Source: Escherichia phage APECc02. Taken from it: a stretch of DNA of 64,000 nucleotides. The DNA lies in sequence record NC_041869.1; one strand, written 5' to 3'. The notes below the pieces were generated by a model. That model saw nothing but the letters and a program-made list of their open reading frames with translations, was not told the origin of the DNA and ran no database searches. Positions 5,860-11,882 of this stretch are shown here, in pieces. Made by a program: the position numbers and the translations under genes. Within the stretch, counting starts at the first letter, position 1. Each line of letters opens with the position of its first letter.

Positions 5860-5934
5860 GCCCTGTTAGCTTAGTGGATAAAGCAGCGGCCTTCTAAGCC
5901 GTTGACACTGGTTCGAGTCCAGTACGGGGTGCCA
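5860..5934 (+). tRNA. tRNA-Arg (anticodon TCT)
   Basis: Manual cloverleaf fold: acceptor GCCCTGT/ACGGGGT, anticodon loop CTTCTAA, T-loop TTCGAGT, encoded CCA. Confidence 0.8.
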
Positions 5935-5938
5935 AATT

Positions 5939-6025
5939 GGGGAGTTATCCCGTAGAGGTAGCGGTGTAGACTGTAAATCTATTGTCATTGCGACTCGGGT
6001 GGTTCGACTCCACCACTCCCCACCA
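5939..6025 (+). tRNA. tRNA-Tyr (anticodon GTA), long variable arm
   Basis: Acceptor GGGGAGT/ACTCCCC, anticodon loop CTGTAAA, T-loop TTCGACT, encoded CCA. Confidence 0.8.
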
Positions 6026-6139
6026 AATTTACATTTTTAAATGCATAAATCATACAGATAATGGCATTGATATTTATCGTCGTTTATACTAGTCACTAAC
6101 TGCTCGAAAATCAGTGTCATTATCAGTATTGTTTATAAA

Positions 6140-6230
6140 TGAGGGTAGGGAGCAATGGTGCTCAAGCGGTCTTGAAAACCGTCCCGTTGAGGATGACTCG
6201 ATGATGGTTCGATTCCATTACCCTCAGCCA
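6140..6230 (+). tRNA. tRNA-Ser (anticodon TGA), long variable arm
   Basis: Acceptor TGAGGGT/ACCCTCA, anticodon loop CTTGAAA, T-loop TTCGATT, encoded CCA. Confidence 0.7.
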
Positions 6231-6328
6231 TATTGTTGACCTTGTAATTAAGCGAAAGCCGGAAGCAGAACCGGATTATCAAATGTTACAGTCGTCATCG
6301 CCGACTAGCAACATGGTCAACATACTGA

Positions 6329-6427
6329 GCTAGGTAAGCCCTTTGGCAAGGGCGAGGATTTTTAATCCTGAAAATAGACGAGGTAGTCGTTGAATACATA
6401 GGTGGTTCGATTCCATCACCTAGCACC
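6329..6427 (+). tRNA. atypical tRNA-like gene (possible tRNA-Lys TTT variant or pseudogene)
   Basis: Perfect acceptor GCTAGGT/ACCTAGC, D-arm GCCC-TTTGGCAA-GGGC, T-arm GGTGG-TTCGATT-CCATC, but anticodon arm is AGGA-TTTTTAA-TCCT (4-bp stem) or 5-bp stem with 5-nt loop, then about 30-nt extra arm; only CC encoded at 3' end. Confidence 0.35.
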
Positions 6428-6432
6428 TTTTT

Positions 6433-6508
6433 GCTGATGTAGCACAATTGGTAGTGCAATTGATTTGTAATCAATAGGTTGCAGGTTCGAGTCCTGCTAT
6501 CAGCACCA
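6433..6508 (+). tRNA. tRNA-Thr (anticodon TGT)
   Basis: Acceptor GCTGATG/TATCAGC, anticodon loop TTTGTAA, T-loop TTCGAGT, encoded CCA. Confidence 0.8.
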
Positions 6509-6509
6509 T

Positions 6510-6584
6510 GGCCCTGTAGCTGGAAGGTTCAAGCAAGCGACTCATAATCGCCAGACGGTGGTTCAATTCCACCCAGGGCCACCA
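6510..6584 (+). tRNA. tRNA-Met/Ile2 (anticodon CAT)
   Basis: Acceptor GGCCCTG/CAGGGCC, anticodon loop CTCATAA, T-loop TTCAATT, encoded CCA. Confidence 0.75.
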
Positions 6585-6595
6585 AATAATAAATA

Positions 6596-6672
6596 CTCCG
6601 CGTAGCTCAGCTTGGTAGAGCGCCTGATTTGGGATCAGGAGGTCGAGTGTTCGAATCACTCCGTGGAGACCA
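6596..6672 (+). tRNA. tRNA-Pro (anticodon TGG)
   Basis: Acceptor CTCCGCG/CGTGGAG, D-stem GCTC/GAGC, anticodon loop TTTGGGA, T-loop TTCGAAT, encoded CCA. Confidence 0.75.
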
Positions 6673-7101: not shown

Positions 7102-7500
7102 ATGATTTCAGTTTTAACATGGCTGAGTAGGTATAGAGGGATCATAAAAGGTTTAGTTTTTGCAGCTGCGCTAGGTACAGCTTATCTTGGGGCCGTATAT
7201 TGGTTTAACTCTAAGCTTAATGAAGCCTACCAAGAGGGTGTGTCAGCAACAGAGTTAAAGTGGGAACGGATCCTTGATCAGCAACAAAAGCAGGCCGACA
7301 AAATTAAAATGGGCCACGCAGAGGAGGTTAAAAACCTTGAAAAATCCCTTTCTGATCTGCAGGATAAATTAAATATGGCTGAGAAGGCAGGTAAAGAAAA
7401 GCAGATTATCTACCTCCAGTCACCTGAAGGCAAGAAGTCAACACTTCCTGATCAGCTTATAGATATTTATAATGAGAGTATCAATCAGGAGGATCAATGA
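7102..7500 (+). CDS. i-spanin-like protein (N-terminal TM helix plus coiled coil)
   Basis: Hydrophobic segment LVFAAALGTAYLGAVYWF then charged coiled-coil; followed by overlapping lipoprotein gene. Confidence 0.55.
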   Translation: MISVLTWLSRYRGIIKGLVFAAALGTAYLGAVYWFNSKLNEAYQEGVSATELKWERILDQQQKQADKIKMGHAEEVKNLEKSLSDLQDKLNMAEKAGKEKQIIYLQSPEGKKSTLPDQLIDIYNESINQEDQ

Positions 7501-7784
7501 GAGTTGCTACACTGTTTATTGCGTGCTTGTTATTATGTGGGTGTGCAACCAGCGTTGAGAGAGAATACAAGATTGACCCTCCGGATGTAGGAAGGTTGAT
7601 TGTTAAACCCCCGGAAGGTGCCATGAAACCACCTGCTAAAGCTATGCCTTTGAAGAAAGGTGCTCCAGATGCAGTAAATTCTGGCATTATGAGGGATAAT
7701 AATTTGTCTTGTAGCAATGATAGAGCTAAATTGATCATTTTGCAAGACTATATTAGAACACTGTTTCCAAAGGAGAGAGGTTAA
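7497..7784 (+). CDS. o-spanin-like outer-membrane lipoprotein
   Basis: Signal/lipobox LLLCGC then Pro-rich mature region; start overlaps upstream stop (ATGA). Confidence 0.55.
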   Translation: MRVATLFIACLLLCGCATSVEREYKIDPPDVGRLIVKPPEGAMKPPAKAMPLKKGAPDAVNSGIMRDNNLSCSNDRAKLIILQDYIRTLFPKERG

Positions 7785-8218
7785 TGTCTAAGATTTCTAA
7801 GATTTACGGACCGTGTTCTGAAAAGCAGAAGATGATCCTCGAAAACGATGCAGATATTTTGGTAATCGGCGGTGCCGCAGGGTCTGGCAAGTCGTTCCTC
7901 TTGCAGTTGATGCCGCTTAAAATTATTGATGACCCACACAGCTCTGTGGTTATGTTCCGAAGAACAACCCCGCAGTTGGAAGGTGAGGGTGGACTATGGC
8001 CTAAAGCAGTAGCTATTTATAGTGATCTGCCTGAAAACATTAAGCCAAAGTTTAGAGAGAAGGATCATAAGTTCATTTTTCCACGGTTTGATCCGAGCAC
8101 TGGCAAGTGGGATAGAAGCAAAAAGGGAGCTGTTGTAAAATACTGCCACATGGAGTATGTACAAGATAAGCTTAACCATCAGGGGCTTGAGTACACCATG
8201 GTTTGCTTCGATGAGGGT
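7784..8218 (+). CDS. terminase large subunit, exon 1 (ATPase domain)
   Basis: Walker A GGAAGSGKS, Walker B-like MVCFDE; ORF stops at 8219-8221 immediately after DEG, inside intron. Confidence 0.75.
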
Positions 8219-9101
8219 TAATTTGTAGCTCTCGTAAAACCTCCCTAATTGCGGGGAAATCTTTATTATTGACACCACCAACCTGTTATGGTAACATAAT
8301 AGAGGCTTCGAAGAGAGATCGAAGGTATGGTAACAGTGTGTTAATTTAGATAATCCGCAGCGAAGCATCCGAGAGGATGAACGTTCAACGACTAGTCGAA
8401 AGACGTAGAATCAAGCGATTCGAAACGGGAGGGTGAATGTGTAATACTAAAAAATGTATGGATTGCCAAAGAGTTCTGCCTATTGATGATTTCTTTTTAT
8501 CATCTAAGAGCAAGGATGGATACTCAGGTACATGCAAGGAATGCTATATGTACTACAGGAAGGGTGGATCTCGTAAAAACAAAAATATGGTTAAGAGAGA
8601 TGACGCAGCATTGTTTATTCAAGACTTGCTGAAGAAAGGTGAACTTTTTGAATGCAAATCTTGTCATGAAAGTATGCTCGCTGATAGTTTTTACACAAAA
8701 CGTGACTATGGTAAAGTATATCTGGTTACGAACAGGTGTAAGATGTGTGAAAAGTTTTATCAGATTGAGAAGAAATTTCACATAACAAAAGATGAATACT
8801 ATCGTCTACTCTCAGATCAAGATCATAAGTGTGCCATTTGTAGAATATCTCTTAATGAGTATAGGACGCAAGGGTACAGAGATTTCTTTTGTGTTGATCA
8901 TGACCATAAAACTGGTGCTGTAAGAGGGTTGCTTTGTGATAAATGCAACAGAGCTTTAGGTTTCTTCCAAGAAGATGAGGAAACTATTCTTAGAGCGGCA
9001 GAGTATTTACACATTCATAAGATATAGTCTGGTCTGCATGGAGACATGCAGCTGCCTGAAAATGGCGGGGCAAGACTAGCGACCTTGCCCGAACATAAAC
9101 G
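8219..9101 (+). mobile_element. group I intron with embedded HNH homing endonuclease gene
   Basis: Conserved core elements P (aattgcggggaaatc 8247-8260), Q (aatccgcagc 8352-8361), R (gttcaacgactagtc 8383-8397), S-like (9072-9084); exon 1 ends in T 8218, intron ends in G 9101; flanking exons are in frame. Confidence 0.75.
8437..9027 (+). CDS. HNH (endonuclease VII-like) homing endonuclease, intron-encoded
   Basis: GGGAGGG RBS; Cys-rich N-terminus; motif FCVDHDHKTGAVRGLLCDKCNRALG. Confidence 0.8.
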   Translation: MCNTKKCMDCQRVLPIDDFFLSSKSKDGYSGTCKECYMYYRKGGSRKNKNMVKRDDAALFIQDLLKKGELFECKSCHESMLADSFYTKRDYGKVYLVTNRCKMCEKFYQIEKKFHITKDEYYRLLSDQDHKCAICRISLNEYRTQGYRDFFCVDHDHKTGAVRGLLCDKCNRALGFFQEDEETILRAAEYLHIHKI

Positions 9102-10223
9102 ACACAGTTCGAATGGGAGCAGATAGACTATCTGATGTCTCGTCTGCGATCTCAGTCAAAGTATCCATCAAGAATGGTTATCAGCTGTAACCCTGATTCA
9201 GAACACATGCTTGCCAAACTGGTTAGGTGGTGGTTGGACGATGAAGGGTATCCAGATCCGGAGAAATGTGGTAAGAAAAGGTATTTTATCAGGCGTGACG
9301 GTGAATTTATCTGGGGAGACTCTAAAGAGGAGTTGATAGAGAAATACACCACGGTTAACGGACTGGGTGTGGAGATCAAGCCAAGACCGTTGTCATTCTC
9401 GTTTATAGGCGCAACAATATTCGATAATCCTGTCTGCTTGAGAGACAACCCAGAATACCTTGCTTTCCTTGAAGGTCTGCCTGAGCTTGAAAAAGCCCAG
9501 CTTCTTCATGGTAACTGGTTTGCAAAGCCTGAGGGTGCAAACTATTTTCAAAGATCTTTCCTTCGTGATGCCGATAGAGTACCTCTTGGATCAGTGTCTT
9601 GCAGGGCATGGGATAAAGCAGGAACCGAGAGAACTTCCGGTAATAAATTTCCTGACTTTACCGCCAGTGTCAAGGTAAGTAAAGATAGCGACGGCTTTTA
9701 TTACCTGTCCGGGGATTATTGTCCTGAGAACGTGGATGACGGGAGGTATTCCACAGGTCTGGAAGGCAAGTTCTGTAAAAAGGCTGGTGAACGAGATGTG
9801 ATCATCAGGAAACAGGCGCAGTTTGATGGTGATGATTGTATAATCGTATTCTCTGTGGACCCCGGTCAGGCAGGTAAGAGTGAGTTCTTAACCTCCTCCA
9901 GATCCTTGCTTGCCGAAGGGTTTAGGGTTGAAGAAGACCCAATGCCTTCCAACAAATCTAAACTGACAAGGTTCTCACCTTTTGCCAATCTTGCCCAACA
10001 AGGAATGGTGAGGATTGTAAAATCCAGTTTCCATCCTGATACTCTGGAAGCATTTCTGACTGAACTTGAAAAATTCAACGGGGAAAGATCAACATTTAAC
10101 AGAAAAGACGACTGGGCCGACTGTGTAGCTTCTGCGATTAATTTCCTGGAGAAAGAGGAGGTAGCACTTCCTTGTGTGATTCCATCAATCTCATCACCTT
10201 CTATGTTCAAGCGTTTTATCTAA
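9102..10223 (+). CDS. terminase large subunit, exon 2 (nuclease domain)
   Basis: Same frame as exon 1 when 8219-9101 is removed, giving ...FDEG-TQFEWEQIDYLMSRL...; long ORF directly upstream of portal gene. Confidence 0.7.
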   Translation, partial: TQFEWEQIDYLMSRLRSQSKYPSRMVISCNPDSEHMLAKLVRWWLDDEGYPDPEKCGKKRYFIRRDGEFIWGDSKEELIEKYTTVNGLGVEIKPRPLSFSFIGATIFDNPVCLRDNPEYLAFLEGLPELEKAQLLHGNWFAKPEGANYFQRSFLRDADRVPLGSVSCRAWDKAGTERTSGNKFPDFTASVKVSKDSDGFYYLSGDYCPENVDDGRYSTGLEGKFCKKAGERDVIIRKQAQFDGDDCIIVFSVDPGQAGKSEFLTSSRSLLAEGFRVEEDPMPSNKSKLTRFSPFANLAQQGMVRIVKSSFHPDTLEAFLTELEKFNGERSTFNRKDDWADCVASAINFLEKEEVALPCVIPSISSPSMFKRFI

Positions 10224-10226
10224 GTG

Positions 10227-10255
10227 TTGCCAATCTTAATTAGATGTGGTAGAAT
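10227..10255 (+). promoter_or_regulatory. promoter TTGCCA-17-TAGAAT (TGGTAGAAT extended -10)
   Basis: Between terL and portal. Confidence 0.35.
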
Positions 10256-10273
10256 AGAGTAATCGGAGATACT

Positions 10274-10300
10274 AGCCCTCTAACACGAGGGCTATTTTGT
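10274..10300 (+). terminator. hairpin AGCCCTC-TAACAC-GAGGGCT followed by T-rich tract (attenuator/terminator candidate)
   Basis: Perfect 7-bp stem, then ATTTTGTT. Confidence 0.35.
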
Positions 10301-10325
10301 TATACTGTTTTGAGGGGTAAAGCTT

Positions 10326-11882
10326 GTGTCCAAAAAGAACCGCAGGAAACACAACGCCACAGCCAAAACTGTGAATAAATCTGGGAACGCAGGCGCACCA
10401 ACTCATAATGTTCGTATGAGTGAGATCGGTTCTGGCGCACTTTCCCAAATTATGGCAGAATCGCAATCTATGATGGTTGAGGAATTGCGTTGGCCTCAGC
10501 TGATTGCCACCGTGGAGACTATGAAATGTGATTCCACAGTTGCTACTGCCTTAGATACAAAATATGTTTTCATCACGAAAGCATTCAATGATTTTAAGAT
10601 CCTCTATAATGTTAAAAGTGAAGACTCTAAGAAAGCTGCCGAGCTTATAGAGTATTCTTTGCGTAATTTGGCAAACCAACAAACTCTTCGAGATATTGCA
10701 AGAAGCGCAGCTACCTTTAACGAGTATGGTTTTTCACTGTTTGAGAAAGTATACCGCAGAGAGAAAGAAGGTAAATATGCCGGGATGCTTCTTATTGATA
10801 AAATTGCATTCCGACCTCAGGCCAGTTTGTCCAGATCAGAGCCGTTTGTCTTTGACAAGAATAGTAGAACACTGACAGGTATTTATCAATCACCTAATGC
10901 ATTTCTAAACACTCAGAATGCACGCTGGGCTGGACCTCTTGCTGCAATGCCTTCAAAAGGCTTTAATGAGCCTGAAATTTTCATCCCTGCTAAAAAGCTT
11001 ATGCTCATGACCCTGTCAGGAACAGAATCTAACCCTGCAGGTGTGTCACCGATGATAGGTTGCTACAGATCTTTCCGTGAGAAAGTTCTGATTGAAAACC
11101 TTGAGGTTGTTGGCTGTTCCAAAGACCTTGGTGGTGTGCTTGAGCTGAAAATTCCTTCCAATATTTTGAACAAGGCCAGCATTGACCCGAATTCAATGGA
11201 AGGGAGAATGGTTGCAGACCTTATGCTTGACGCAGCAAACGCCCATAGTGGTGAGCAAAGTTTCTTTATACTTCCGTCTGATAGAGATAAGTCTGGTAAA
11301 GAGCTTTACTCCATGACCCTGAAGGGGGTTGACGGTATGGGTAAGCAGTATTCCACTAAAGATTTGATTGATGCCCGTAAGAAGGCGATTCTTGACCGTT
11401 TCGGTGCTGGCTTTATTAACCTCGGTAACGATAACGTTGGATCCTTCTCTCTGTCTGAGTCAAAACAGTCTATCCATGGTCATTTTGTTCAGCGTGATAT
11501 AGATATTATCACTGAGGCCTTCAATAAAGATCTTATTCCACAGCTTCTGGCATTGAATGGTATCATCCTTGAAGATGATGATATGCCTAAACTGAAACCT
11601 GGTCTGATTGAAGAAGTGGATATGGAGAGCTTCTCCAAGTTTGTCCAGAGGATCGGTGCTGTAGGTTACTTGCCAAAAACTCCTGCAGTAATTAATAAGA
11701 TTCTTGAAGTTGGCGGGTTTGATGAAAGATTTGACGAGGACATGGATCAGGAAGAGCTGATGAAGCTCTTGGGCCAGGACATTAGTAGGGCTGGTGATGG
11801 AATGGCTGCAGGATCCACTGGCAACGGCACTTCTAAGATGTCATCAACCAGAGATAATTCCATATCCAACATGGAAAATTAA
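10326..11882 (+). CDS. portal protein (putative)
   Basis: GTG start; 518 aa; position directly after terminase and before scaffold/capsid genes. Confidence 0.55.
   Translation: MSKKNRRKHNATAKTVNKSGNAGAPTHNVRMSEIGSGALSQIMAESQSMMVEELRWPQLIATVETMKCDSTVATALDTKYVFITKAFNDFKILYNVKSEDSKKAAELIEYSLRNLANQQTLRDIARSAATFNEYGFSLFEKVYRREKEGKYAGMLLIDKIAFRPQASLSRSEPFVFDKNSRTLTGIYQSPNAFLNTQNARWAGPLAAMPSKGFNEPEIFIPAKKLMLMTLSGTESNPAGVSPMIGCYRSFREKVLIENLEVVGCSKDLGGVLELKIPSNILNKASIDPNSMEGRMVADLMLDAANAHSGEQSFFILPSDRDKSGKELYSMTLKGVDGMGKQYSTKDLIDARKKAILDRFGAGFINLGNDNVGSFSLSESKQSIHGHFVQRDIDIITEAFNKDLIPQLLALNGIILEDDDMPKLKPGLIEEVDMESFSKFVQRIGAVGYLPKTPAVINKILEVGGFDERFDEDMDQEELMKLLGQDISRAGDGMAAGSTGNGTSKMSSTRDNSISNMEN

What the first reader, a model, noticed from the sequence alone, without database searches (positions are those of the whole stretch)
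8219..9101. Self-splicing group I intron with HNH homing endonuclease interrupting the large terminase gene
Seen in sequence: the terminase ORF stops right after its Walker-B-like MVCFDEG; 883 nt later the same frame resumes (TQFEWEQIDYLMSRL...) and runs into the nuclease half. The gap contains matches to the classical group I core elements P, Q and R, an S-like element after the ORF, U at the 5' exon end and G at the intron 3' end, and a free-standing endonuclease VII-type HNH gene. Established knowledge: group I introns with homing endonucleases are known in phage genes but each insertion site is lineage-specific; an intron right after the Walker B box of terL is a notable site.
Basis: partly seen in the sequence, partly recalled or inferred. 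Interest (0 to 1): 0.65.

Follow-up and report, generated by a model that had tools for sequence, protein, structure and literature searches.

The report
Known group I intron in terminase gene
The large terminase gene of this rV5-like coliphage is interrupted by a T4-td-like self-splicing group I intron that carries its own homing endonuclease gene; the reading is correct, but this intron is already published and annotated for the phage group.

Summary
terL exon 1 (7784-8218) and exon 2 (9102-10223) join in frame across an 883-nt gap. The joined protein is collinear with the uninterrupted TerL of the close relative Murica.

The gap is a group I intron of the T4 td type. P, Q, R and S are all present, the U8218·G8228 wobble sits in P1, and G9101 is the terminal G. 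An endonuclease VII-type HNH gene (8437-9027) lies in the P8 loop.

Rfam Intron_gpI scores the window copy 46.3 bits, below the cut-off of 50. The shortfall comes from the inserted ORF: the ORF-less allele of the same intron (JohannBauhin; also in rV5) scores 84.3 bits. Across eight related phage introns, 96% of core pair cells are paired and 19 of 35 pairs show compensatory changes.

It is not new. The 2013 rV5 genome paper has a section "Introns in terminase". rV5 RefSeq and BASEL GenBank records annotate terL as a join, some with a "putative homing endonuclease". Related terL introns in CB7 (splicing shown by RT-PCR) and LPML1 sit 6 nt upstream.

I found no splicing or homing experiment for this particular intron. 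Verdict: correct interpretation, already known, low interest.

The parts
7784..8218 (+). terL exon 1 (145 codons: Walker A GGAAGSGKS; Walker B MVCFDE, then G)
   Evidence: ORF list and translation; PF03237 profile positions 2-104; collinear with the uninterrupted Murica TerL
8219..9101 (+). Group I intron, td-like (subgroup IA2-like), 883 nt, 38.8% GC against 44.1% for the window
   Evidence: RF00028 46.3 bits, E 1.3e-8; absent from Murica at exactly this point; the ORF-less allele scores 84.3 bits
8213..8233 (+). P1: GAGGGUUA (8213-8220) pairs with UAGCUCUC (8226-8233). U8218·G8228 marks the 5' splice site. The exon-1 frame stops at UAA 8219-8221, the first three intron bases
   Evidence: Rfam alignment; coordinates; sequence
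8240..8245 (+). P3 5' strand CCUCCC (pairs with 8427-8432)
   Evidence: 5 of 6 pairs show compensatory changes across 8 introns
8247..8361 (+). P4 (UGCGGG 8250-8255 / UCCGCA 8354-8359) enclosing P5 and its roughly 75-nt extension (P5a hairpin 8282-8305 with a GUAA loop; P5b hairpin 8306-8324). Contains the P and Q elements
   Evidence: P5a U-A to C-G compensatory change between near-identical alleles
8366..8379 (+). P6a hairpin CAUCC-GAGA-GGAUG
8383..8421 (+). R element with the P7 5' strand (GACUA 8390-8394), then P7.1 (8395-8404, GAAA loop) and P7.2 (8408-8421)
   Evidence: the presence of P7.1 and P7.2 is the subgroup IA hallmark (established knowledge, Michel and Westhof classification)
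8427..8432 (+). P3 3' strand GGGAGG, which also contains the Shine-Dalgarno GGAGG of the endonuclease gene
8435..8447 (+). P8 5' strand GAAUGUGUAAUAC, which contains the endonuclease start codon AUG 8437-8439
   Evidence: complementary to 9003-9016
8437..9027 (+). Homing endonuclease gene (196 aa). EndoVII-type HNH domain at residues 110-192, with CxxC at 132 and 167, DHDH at 154 and CN at 170-171. Two N-terminal Cys4 zinc-ribbon repeats, with CxxC at 7, 33, 73 and 101
   Evidence: PF02945 E 1.3e-21; PDB relatives Hpy99I 1e-5 and T4 endonuclease VII 1e-4; motif positions; precisely absent from JohannBauhin and rV5
9003..9016 (+). P8 3' strand GUAUUUACACAUUC, inside the last codons of the endonuclease gene
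9019..9030 (+). S element with the P7 3' strand (UAGUC 9025-9029). Overlaps the endonuclease stop codon UAG 9025-9027
9034..9101 (+). P9 (9034-9051, GAGA loop), P9.1 (9052-9068), P9.2 (9069-9089), the tail GAACAUAAACG and the terminal G9101. About 82% identical to the 3' domain of the T4 td intron
9102..10223 (+). terL exon 2 (373 codons plus stop): rest of the ATPase domain and the RNase H-like nuclease domain
   Evidence: PF03237 profile positions 111-211 and PF17289

Best explanation
The 883 nt at 8219-9101 are a mobile group I intron of the T4 td type. It interrupts the large terminase gene of an rV5-like coliphage (Vequintavirus) one codon after the Walker B catalytic Glu.

Splicing (inferred from anatomy). 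In the pre-mRNA the intron folds into the P3-P9 catalytic core. P1 pairs the end of exon 1 with the internal guide sequence, and the U8218·G8228 wobble marks the 5' splice site. A free guanosine attacks there. The terminal G9101 then takes the guanosine site in P7 and the exons are ligated to GGU|ACA, giving a 518-aa TerL.

Translation (sequence fact plus inference). Ribosomes reading unspliced RNA stop at UAA 8219-8221, the first intron codon, so they do not run into the core. The endonuclease gene fills the P8 loop. Its Shine-Dalgarno lies in the P3 3' strand, its AUG in the P8 5' strand and its stop codon in the P7 3' strand. Translation of the endonuclease and folding of the ribozyme are therefore probably mutually exclusive.

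Mobility (inferred). The EndoVII-type HNH endonuclease is predicted to cut intron-less terL alleles near the insertion site during mixed infection. Repair from the intron-bearing genome would then copy the intron in, together with the adjacent exon bases.

Shown here: boundaries, fold, family membership, and presence/absence polymorphism. Not shown: actual splicing, endonuclease activity and its target.
For: Identity of the phage. The window is about 98% identical to rV5-like coliphages.

Boundaries. Uninterrupted terL in Murica reads ...GATGAGGGC ACGCAG... and its protein is collinear with the spliced window product, differing at 3 residues and by a 3-codon N-terminal duplication.

Group I model. 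RF00028 gives a full-length match (model positions 1-253) at 46.3 bits, E 1.3e-8. The allele lacking only the ORF scores 84.3 bits. By comparison, the RT-PCR-verified CB7 terL intron scores only 35.2 bits (PMC7344957).

Structure. The minimum-free-energy fold of the ORF-less allele recovers P3, P4, P5, P6a, P7.1, P7.2, P8, P9 and P9.2, with z = -4.65. Across 8 related introns, 96.3% of cells pair and 19 of 35 pairs carry compensatory changes. Slid controls pair at 30-43%, and 0 of 500 shuffles reach the observed values. P8 has unrelated sequences in the endonuclease-bearing and ORF-less alleles, yet both form a stem. The 3' domain is about 82% identical to T4 td.

Endonuclease. It matches PF02945 at 1.3e-21 with intact zinc and catalytic motifs.

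Polymorphism. Of 117 Vequintavirus records, roughly 65 are intron-less, 23 carry the ORF-less intron and 28 carry the endonuclease-bearing intron.

Flanking bases. All 5 intron-bearing alleles examined have GGT|ACA. All 5 intron-less alleles have GGC or GGA followed by ACG.

Prior reports. The rV5 paper and public join annotations say the same thing.
Against: No experiment on this intron was found in the searchable literature. The rV5 and BASEL annotations are comparative. The Rfam score of the window copy itself is below the curated cut-off (46.3 against 50), and the default scan misses it. P7 and several core pairs are invariant and so add nothing to the covariation case. P10 is only about 3 bp (ACA with UGU 8224-8226, read from the sequence). 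No promoter for the endonuclease is established, and the single sigma-70-like match inside the intron is a consensus hit only. The helices for P7.1, P7.2 and P8 were chosen by eye.
Confidence: 0.93

Rival explanations
1. The insertion does not splice. TerL would be made as two polypeptides that assemble after translation, as reported for Aeromonas phage Aeh1 NrdA split by mobE and suspected for one CB7 gene.
For: Such non-splicing endonuclease insertions exist (PMC7344957). Exon 1 ends with its own stop codon. An ATG lies at 9135 with GGGAG 16-20 nt upstream. The window copy is below Rfam's gathering score.
Against: A complete and covarying group I core is present, with the U·G wobble and terminal G exactly where the frame is restored. 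The ATG at 9135 and its upstream sequence are identical in intron-less alleles, so they are not an evolved start. Initiation at 9135 would drop 11 conserved residues. The split falls one residue after the catalytic Glu, inside the ATPase fold. The related CB7 terL intron does splice.
Confidence: 0.03
2. The ribozyme splices, but the endonuclease gene is a decaying or inactive passenger. The intron would then spread among Vequintaviruses only by ordinary homologous recombination.
For: ORF-less copies of the same intron are about as common (~23 records) as endonuclease-bearing ones (~28), which fits a cycle of endonuclease gain and loss. No cleavage data exist. None of the five sampled intron-less alleles carries the GGT|ACA flanks, so susceptible targets may now be rare.
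Against: The ORF is intact and 97-100% identical in 28 records. All four Cys pairs of the zinc ribbons, the HNH zinc site and the DHDH...N motif are retained. It has a strong Shine-Dalgarno at correct spacing. A 41%-identical homologue occupies the same intron loop in LPML1 terL, which argues for long-term retention.
Confidence: 0.15
3. The gap is a chance or assembly artefact: a frameshifted or chimeric terL with an unrelated ORF between the halves.
For: None beyond the bare fact that the gene is split.
Against: The same 883-nt insert is found at 96-98% identity in about 28 independently sequenced phages. Its boundaries are precise against intron-less alleles, and the RNA-model support has E 1.3e-8.
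Confidence: 0.005

Closest known systems
terL intron 1 of Escherichia phage rV5 and other Vequintavirus (rV5 RefSeq NC_011041 three-exon join; BASEL phages HeinrichReichert, DrSchubert, MaxBurger, WalterGehring)
   Same: Same gene, same insertion point and the same ribozyme. The 214-nt 5' part is identical to rV5, and the 83-nt 3' part differs at 2 positions. The BASEL records carry the same endonuclease gene at 98.5-99.5% identity and annotate terL as a join plus 'putative homing endonuclease'. The rV5 paper describes 'Introns in terminase'.
   Different: rV5 itself has the ORF-less form, with a 22-nt P8 hairpin in place of the 586-nt cassette that carries P8 and the endonuclease gene. rV5 also has a second, 979-nt intron with a bIL170-like HNH between window positions 9418 and 9419, which this window lacks. 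The window additionally has a 9-nt duplication at the terL 5' end.
T4 td intron (subgroup IA2, experimentally self-splicing; encodes I-TevI)
   Same: The P, Q, R and S core, the P7.1/P7.2 insertion, and the P9/P9.1/P9.2 layout ending ...GAACAUAA(A)(C/U)G. About 82% identity over the 3' 79 nt. An in-frame stop lies just inside the intron, and endonuclease translation signals are buried in structure (the td facts are established knowledge).
   Different: Different host gene. The ORF sits in the P8 loop rather than P6. The nuclease is an EndoVII/HNH, not the GIY-YIG I-TevI. There is no P2 (alignment). P5 carries a large extension.
terL intron of Pectobacterium phage CB7 (Certrevirus, Vequintavirinae), spliced in vivo by RT-PCR (PMC7344957)
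   Same: A related td-like ribozyme in the orthologous terL, with the same P7, P9, P9.1 and P9.2 pattern. It also targets the Walker B region.
   Different: It is inserted 6 nt upstream, between the D and E codons (GAT|GAAGGT). Its endonuclease gene lies in the P6 loop and is unrelated in sequence. Its Rfam score is 35.2 bits.
terL intron of 'Listeria phage' LPML1 (Ounavirinae)
   Same: A group I intron (RF00028, 57 bits) with a 41%-identical EndoVII-type endonuclease (E 2e-48) in the same P8 loop, directly after P3'.
   Different: It is inserted between D and E of Walker B, 6 nt upstream of the window site. The host TerL is only about 36% identical. The record leaves it unannotated, as hypothetical proteins.
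terL group I intron of Lactobacillus phage LL-H (Mikkonen and Alatossava 1995, cited in PMC3606486)
   Same: The first reported group I intron in a phage terminase gene.
   Different: A siphovirus of a Gram-positive host. Its sequence and insertion site were not compared here.

Membership tests
Group I catalytic intron (Rfam RF00028) | Covariance-model score at or above the curated gathering score (50 bits) | tested here: inconclusive
   The window copy scores 46.3 bits (E 1.3e-8), a full-length match to model positions 1-253 but below 50. The same intron without the ORF (JohannBauhin) scores 84.3 bits. The proven CB7 intron scores 35.2 bits. The shortfall is the penalty for the 555-nt insertion in the P8 loop.
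Group I catalytic intron (Rfam RF00028) | P1 helix between the 5' exon end and the internal guide sequence, with a U·G wobble at the splice site | tested here: met
   8213-8220 pairs with 8226-8233 over 8 bp, including U8218·G8228. All 5 intron-bearing alleles have T at -1 and all 5 intron-less alleles have C or A.
Group I catalytic intron (Rfam RF00028) | Terminal G (omega-G) at the intron's 3' end, and exon ligation that restores the gene | tested here: met
   The last intron base is G9101. The join is in frame and collinear with intron-less Murica TerL. Alignment alone would also allow 8218-9100. The U-at-minus-1 and terminal-G rules select 8219-9101.
Group I catalytic intron (Rfam RF00028) | Conserved core helices P3, P4, P6, P7, P8 and P9 supported by covariation | tested here: met
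   96.3% of cells are paired and 19 of 35 pairs carry compensatory changes. Slid controls give 30-43%, and 0 of 500 shuffles reach the observed values. P8 forms a stem in all 8 introns with unrelated sequences. P7 is invariant and so uninformative. P6 was not tested formally.
Group I catalytic intron (Rfam RF00028) | Guanosine-dependent self-splicing | not testable with these tools
   This needs in vitro transcription with GTP, or RT-PCR. I found no such experiment for Vequintavirus; there is one for the related CB7 intron only.
Subgroup IA2 (T4 td / nrdB / sunY type) | Extra hairpins P7.1 and P7.2 between P7 and P3', and sequence similarity to td | tested here: met
   P7.1 lies at 8395-8404 and P7.2 at 8408-8421. 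The 3' 79 nt are about 82% identical to T4, T6 and RB7 td. Assignment to the subgroup from these features rests on the Michel-Westhof scheme (established knowledge). P2 is absent, unlike td.
Endonuclease VII / HNH (beta-beta-alpha-Me) nucleases, Pfam PF02945 | Profile score above the curated cut-off, plus a Cys4 zinc site and the catalytic His/Asp...Asn motif | tested here: met
   76.7 bits against a cut-off of 23.6. C132xxC135, D154-H-D-H157, C167xxC170 and N171 are present. It aligns to T4 endonuclease VII (1e-4) and Hpy99I (1e-5).
Homing endonuclease (functional class) | Gene embedded in a self-splicing element that is present or absent at one exact site among close relatives | tested here: met
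   Intron-less, ORF-less-intron and endonuclease-bearing alleles occur at the identical site in one genus. The endonuclease is restricted to this intron, and the next relative at 41% identity is also in a terL intron.
Homing endonuclease (functional class) | Site-specific cleavage of the intron-less allele and endonuclease-dependent intron inheritance | not testable with these tools
   Requires biochemistry and phage crosses.
Terminase large subunit (PF03237 Terminase_6N + PF17289 Terminase_6C) | One ATPase domain continuous across the junction, followed by the RNase H-like nuclease domain | tested here: met
   Exon 1 covers profile positions 2-104 and exon 2 covers 111-211 of PF03237. PF17289 follows in exon 2. 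More than 1000 phage records align through the junction without interruption.

The most novel reading that the evidence does not exclude
The intron and its endonuclease may be more than a selfish passenger. They could act as a competition weapon among co-infecting Vequintaviruses by cutting the essential terL of intron-less rivals, as shown for the PhiPA3 intron endonuclease (PMC11620839). On this reading, the strict linkage of synonymous flank variants records an ongoing arms race in which intron-less alleles have escaped the recognition site. The linkage is GGT|ACA with the intron against GGC or GGA followed by ACG without it. The 6-nt shift between the window site and the CB7/LPML1 site would then reflect retargeting of related introns within the Walker B hot spot.
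Probability: 0.25. Interest if true: 0.45.

Novelty: already known. Interest (0 to 1): 0.15.

Why it matters
Practically, automatic annotation of rV5-like phages often splits terL into two or three "terminase-like" ORFs plus a "recombination endonuclease VII". The default Rfam threshold misses the endonuclease-bearing form. Recognising the intron gives the correct 518-aa TerL, which matters because terL is a standard phylogenetic marker.

Biologically it adds little that is new. It is one more td-like mobile intron in a conserved catalytic motif. The natural three-state polymorphism (no intron, ORF-less intron, endonuclease-bearing intron) within a well-sampled, easily grown coliphage genus would make a convenient system for studying homing, endonuclease gain and loss, and intron-mediated phage competition.

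Tried and rejected
1. The default Rfam gathering scan of the window found tRNAs only. I needed the E-value mode.

2. cmscan did not detect the bona fide T4 td intron in L005 at E <= 0.01. RF00028 is therefore insensitive to ORF-bearing introns, and a sub-threshold score is weak negative evidence.

3. I asked whether the sigma-70-like TTGACA-17-TAACAT at 8269-8297 is an endonuclease-linked promoter. I rejected this as a correlate, because rV5's ORF-less intron has the identical sequence. Function remains untested.

4. MAFFT misaligned P7.1, P7.2 and P8 across the eight introns. I left these helices out of the formal pair count and checked them only in a hand-curated table, which is biased by my choice of strands. 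A few of the positions printed for the comparison loci in that table are first-occurrence artefacts (HdK5 intron-2 P3 and P9.2, Asterion P8).

5. My first flank comparison had a 2-nt offset error. It is corrected.

6. The CB7 endonuclease was tested as a possible homologue of the window endonuclease. It shows no similarity.

7. I considered intein, group II intron and programmed frameshift. I rejected all three: the insert has stop codons in the terL frame from its first codon, a group I core, and no reverse transcriptase or intein motifs.

8. I did not run the large protein-database, structure-prediction or metagenome searches. The phage collection and the literature already settled the question.

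Full report
**Observation.** The window is an rV5-like coliphage (Vequintavirus). The region 7700-10300 is 97-98% identical to Gotham, HeinrichReichert, JES2013 and many others. The terL ORF starts at 7784 and stops at TAA 8219-8221, directly after ...MVCFDEG. Joining 7784-8218 to 9102-10223 gives 1557 nt in frame and a 518-aa protein. Pfam Terminase_6N covers profile positions 2-104 in exon 1 and 111-211 in exon 2. Terminase_6C follows. The gap ORF 8437-9027 matches PF02945 Endonuclease_7 at E 1.3e-21.

**Is the insert precisely bounded?** Yes. A 111-aa peptide spanning the proposed junction matches a single uninterrupted stretch at 100% identity in Murica, vB_EcoM_10C2_SA_NWU and others. It also aligns through the junction in more than 1000 phage terL genes.
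- Murica DNA reads ...TTCGATGAGGGC ACGCAGTTCGAATGG...
- The window exons read ...TTCGATGAGGGT | ACACAGTTCGAATGG....
- Alignment alone would also tolerate 8218-9100. The group I rules (U before the 5' splice site, G as the last intron base) select 8219-9101.

**Is it a group I intron?** Three lines of evidence agree.
- *Rfam score.* The default Rfam scan does not report it. In E-value mode RF00028 matches 8209-9051 over the full model at 46.3 bits, E 2.3e-10 locally and 1.3e-8 for the whole window. It is the only such hit in the 64 kb. The cut-off is 50 bits.
- *Cause of the shortfall.* JohannBauhin and rV5 carry the same intron without the ORF: window 8433-9018 is replaced by a 22-nt hairpin. 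The JohannBauhin copy scores 84.3 bits. For calibration, the CB7 terL intron, whose splicing was shown by RT-PCR and cDNA sequencing (PMC7344957), scores only 35.2 bits. T4 td was not detected at all.
- *Similarity and fold.* The 3' 79 nt are about 82% identical to the T4, T6 and RB7 td intron. The core is about 72% identical to phiKZ introns. The minimum-free-energy fold of the ORF-less allele recovers the expected helices with z = -4.65.

**Anatomy**:

| Element | Coordinates | Notes |
|---|---|---|
| P1 | 8213-8220 / 8226-8233 | U8218·G8228 wobble |
| P2 | absent | |
| P3 | 8240-8245 / 8427-8432 | |
| P4 | 8250-8255 / 8354-8359 | |
| P5 and extension | 8259-8351 | |
| P6a | 8366-8379 | |
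| P7 | 8390-8394 / 9025-9029 | |
| P7.1 | 8395-8404 | |
| P7.2 | 8408-8421 | |
| P8 | 8435-8447 / 9003-9016 | |
| P9 | 9034-9051 | |
| P9.1 | 9052-9068 | |
| P9.2 | 9069-9089 | |
| terminal G | 9101 | |

P7.1 and P7.2, together with the td-like 3' domain, place it in the td-like IA2 type.

**Covariation.** I compared the cores of eight related introns:
- window terL intron 1
- JohannBauhin terL intron 1
- HdK5 terL intron 2
- phiKZ
- CB7 terL
- SPG24 nrd
- Asterion primase-helicase
- a crAss-like phage DNA polymerase

For P3, P4, P7, P9, P9.1 and P9.2, 96.3% of cells form standard pairs, against 30-43% when the 3' partners are slid by 1-3 columns. Nineteen of 35 pairs carry compensatory changes, and 0 of 500 shuffles reach any observed measure. 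P7 is invariant and uninformative. P8 has a different sequence in every intron, including the endonuclease-bearing and ORF-less alleles of this very intron, and always forms a stem (hand-curated). Among near-identical alleles, a U-A to C-G compensatory change occurs in P5a.

**The endonuclease.** It is 196 aa long.
- The C-terminal domain aligns with T4 endonuclease VII and Hpy99I. It keeps C132xxC135, D154HDH157, C167xxC170 and N171.
- The N-terminal half has two Cys4 zinc-ribbon repeats.
- It occurs at 97% identity or more in 28 Vequintavirus records only.
- Its Shine-Dalgarno GGAGG (8428-8432) is part of the P3 3' strand, its AUG lies in the P8 5' strand, and its UAG lies in the P7 3' strand. 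Ribozyme folding and endonuclease translation should therefore compete. This is an inference; the same kind of arrangement is established for T4 td and I-TevI.

Its next relative (41% identity, E 2e-48) is in 'Listeria phage' LPML1, an Ounavirinae phage. There it also sits in the P8 loop of a group I intron (57 bits) in terL, inserted between the D and E codons of Walker B. That is the same position as the CB7 intron, 6 nt upstream of the window site. The CB7 endonuclease is unrelated and sits in P6. The Walker B region of terL is thus a recurrent target, not a unique one.

**Population picture.** Of 117 Vequintavirus records, roughly 65 lack the intron, about 23 have the ORF-less form and about 28 have the endonuclease-bearing form. 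These are estimates from coverage counts. Some relatives (rV5, HdK5) also carry a second 979-nt intron with a different HNH between window positions 9418 and 9419, which is absent here. In a sample of ten alleles, all five intron-bearing ones have GGT|ACA at the junction. All five intron-less ones have GGC or GGA followed by ACG. The T at -1 supplies the U of the U·G wobble. The linkage fits co-conversion, and possibly escape of intron-less alleles from the endonuclease.

**Prior knowledge.** The rV5 genome paper (Virol J 2013, PMC3606486) has a section 'Introns in terminase' and thanks D. Shub for help defining the intron. rV5 RefSeq annotates terL as a three-piece join. The BASEL collection annotates the endonuclease-bearing form as a two-piece join plus 'putative homing endonuclease', and its methods state that intron boundaries were defined by comparative genomics. 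I found no splicing or homing experiment for the Vequintavirus intron itself.

**Verdict.** The claim of a notable, lineage-specific site is not. This is an already described member of a very well known class. Confidence that it is a functional self-splicing group I intron is 0.93. That the endonuclease is active in homing is likely but untested. Interest is low (0.15).

Noticed in passing
window 9418|9419 (terL exon 2, ...GGCGCAACAAT|ATTCGATAA, the conserved FIGAT|IFDNP motif): Relatives rV5 and HdK5 carry a second, 979-nt insertion exactly here. It has its own HNH gene (rV5 gp066, bIL170-like), a weak group I hit (34.9 bits) and recognisable P, Q and R elements. This window lacks it, so the terL introns assort independently among isolates.
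   Followed up: partly
window 8216-8218 and 9102-9104, compared with loci L001-L004, L009 and L016-L019: The synonymous bases flanking the insertion site are perfectly linked to intron state in 10 alleles. With the intron the junction is GGT|ACA. Without it the junction is GGC or GGA followed by ACG. This fits the U·G requirement plus co-conversion, and possibly endonuclease-resistant empty sites.
   Followed up: partly
L020 (OK283618 LPML1) 1796-2626; L007 (KY514263 CB7) 385-1347: Related td-like introns interrupt terL between the D and E codons of Walker B, 6 nt upstream of the window site. LPML1's intron carries a 41%-identical homologue of the window endonuclease in the same P8 loop and is unannotated in the record. 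LPML1 is an Ounavirinae (Felix O1-like) genome labelled as a Listeria phage.
   Followed up: partly
window 7787-7804: There is a tandem 9-nt duplication TCTAAGATT x2 at the start of terL (MSKISKIYG against MSKIYG in Murica). HeinrichReichert is likewise 9 nt shorter over 7400-10400.
   Followed up: partly
window 8269-8297: A sigma-70-like promoter match (TTGACA, 17 nt, TG-TAACAT; 10 of 12) lies inside the P5 extension, about 140 nt upstream of the endonuclease start. The identical sequence is present in rV5's ORF-less intron, so it is not specific to the endonuclease-bearing form. Its function is unknown.
   Followed up: partly
window 5860-6669: A tRNA gene cluster lies upstream of the spanin genes and terL. 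It has six hits at or above the Rfam cut-off, plus a further sub-threshold tRNA-like hit at 6141-6225. This matches the tRNA block annotated in rV5 and Murica.
   Followed up: no
window 10227-10294: A promoter-like site (TTGCCA, 17 nt, TAGAAT) and a strong terminator-like hairpin (10273-10294 followed by a T run) lie between terL and the portal gene. The hairpin coincides with terminators annotated in Murica, HdK5 and rV5.
   Followed up: no
GenBank MG0656xx records (hits H2-H8, H94, H244-H246): About 18 records named 'Campylobacter phage', with host Campylobacter jejuni, are 98-100% identical to E. coli rV5-like phages across terL and the intron. The host labels look wrong, or the records are contaminant assemblies.
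   Followed up: no
L014 (phita32) about 830-1581; PV435126 EPFV3 nrdD: Some Vequintavirus relatives carry another td-like intron, with a 3' domain about 77% identical to the terL intron, splitting nrdD. The window has no second group I hit anywhere in its 64 kb.
   Followed up: partly
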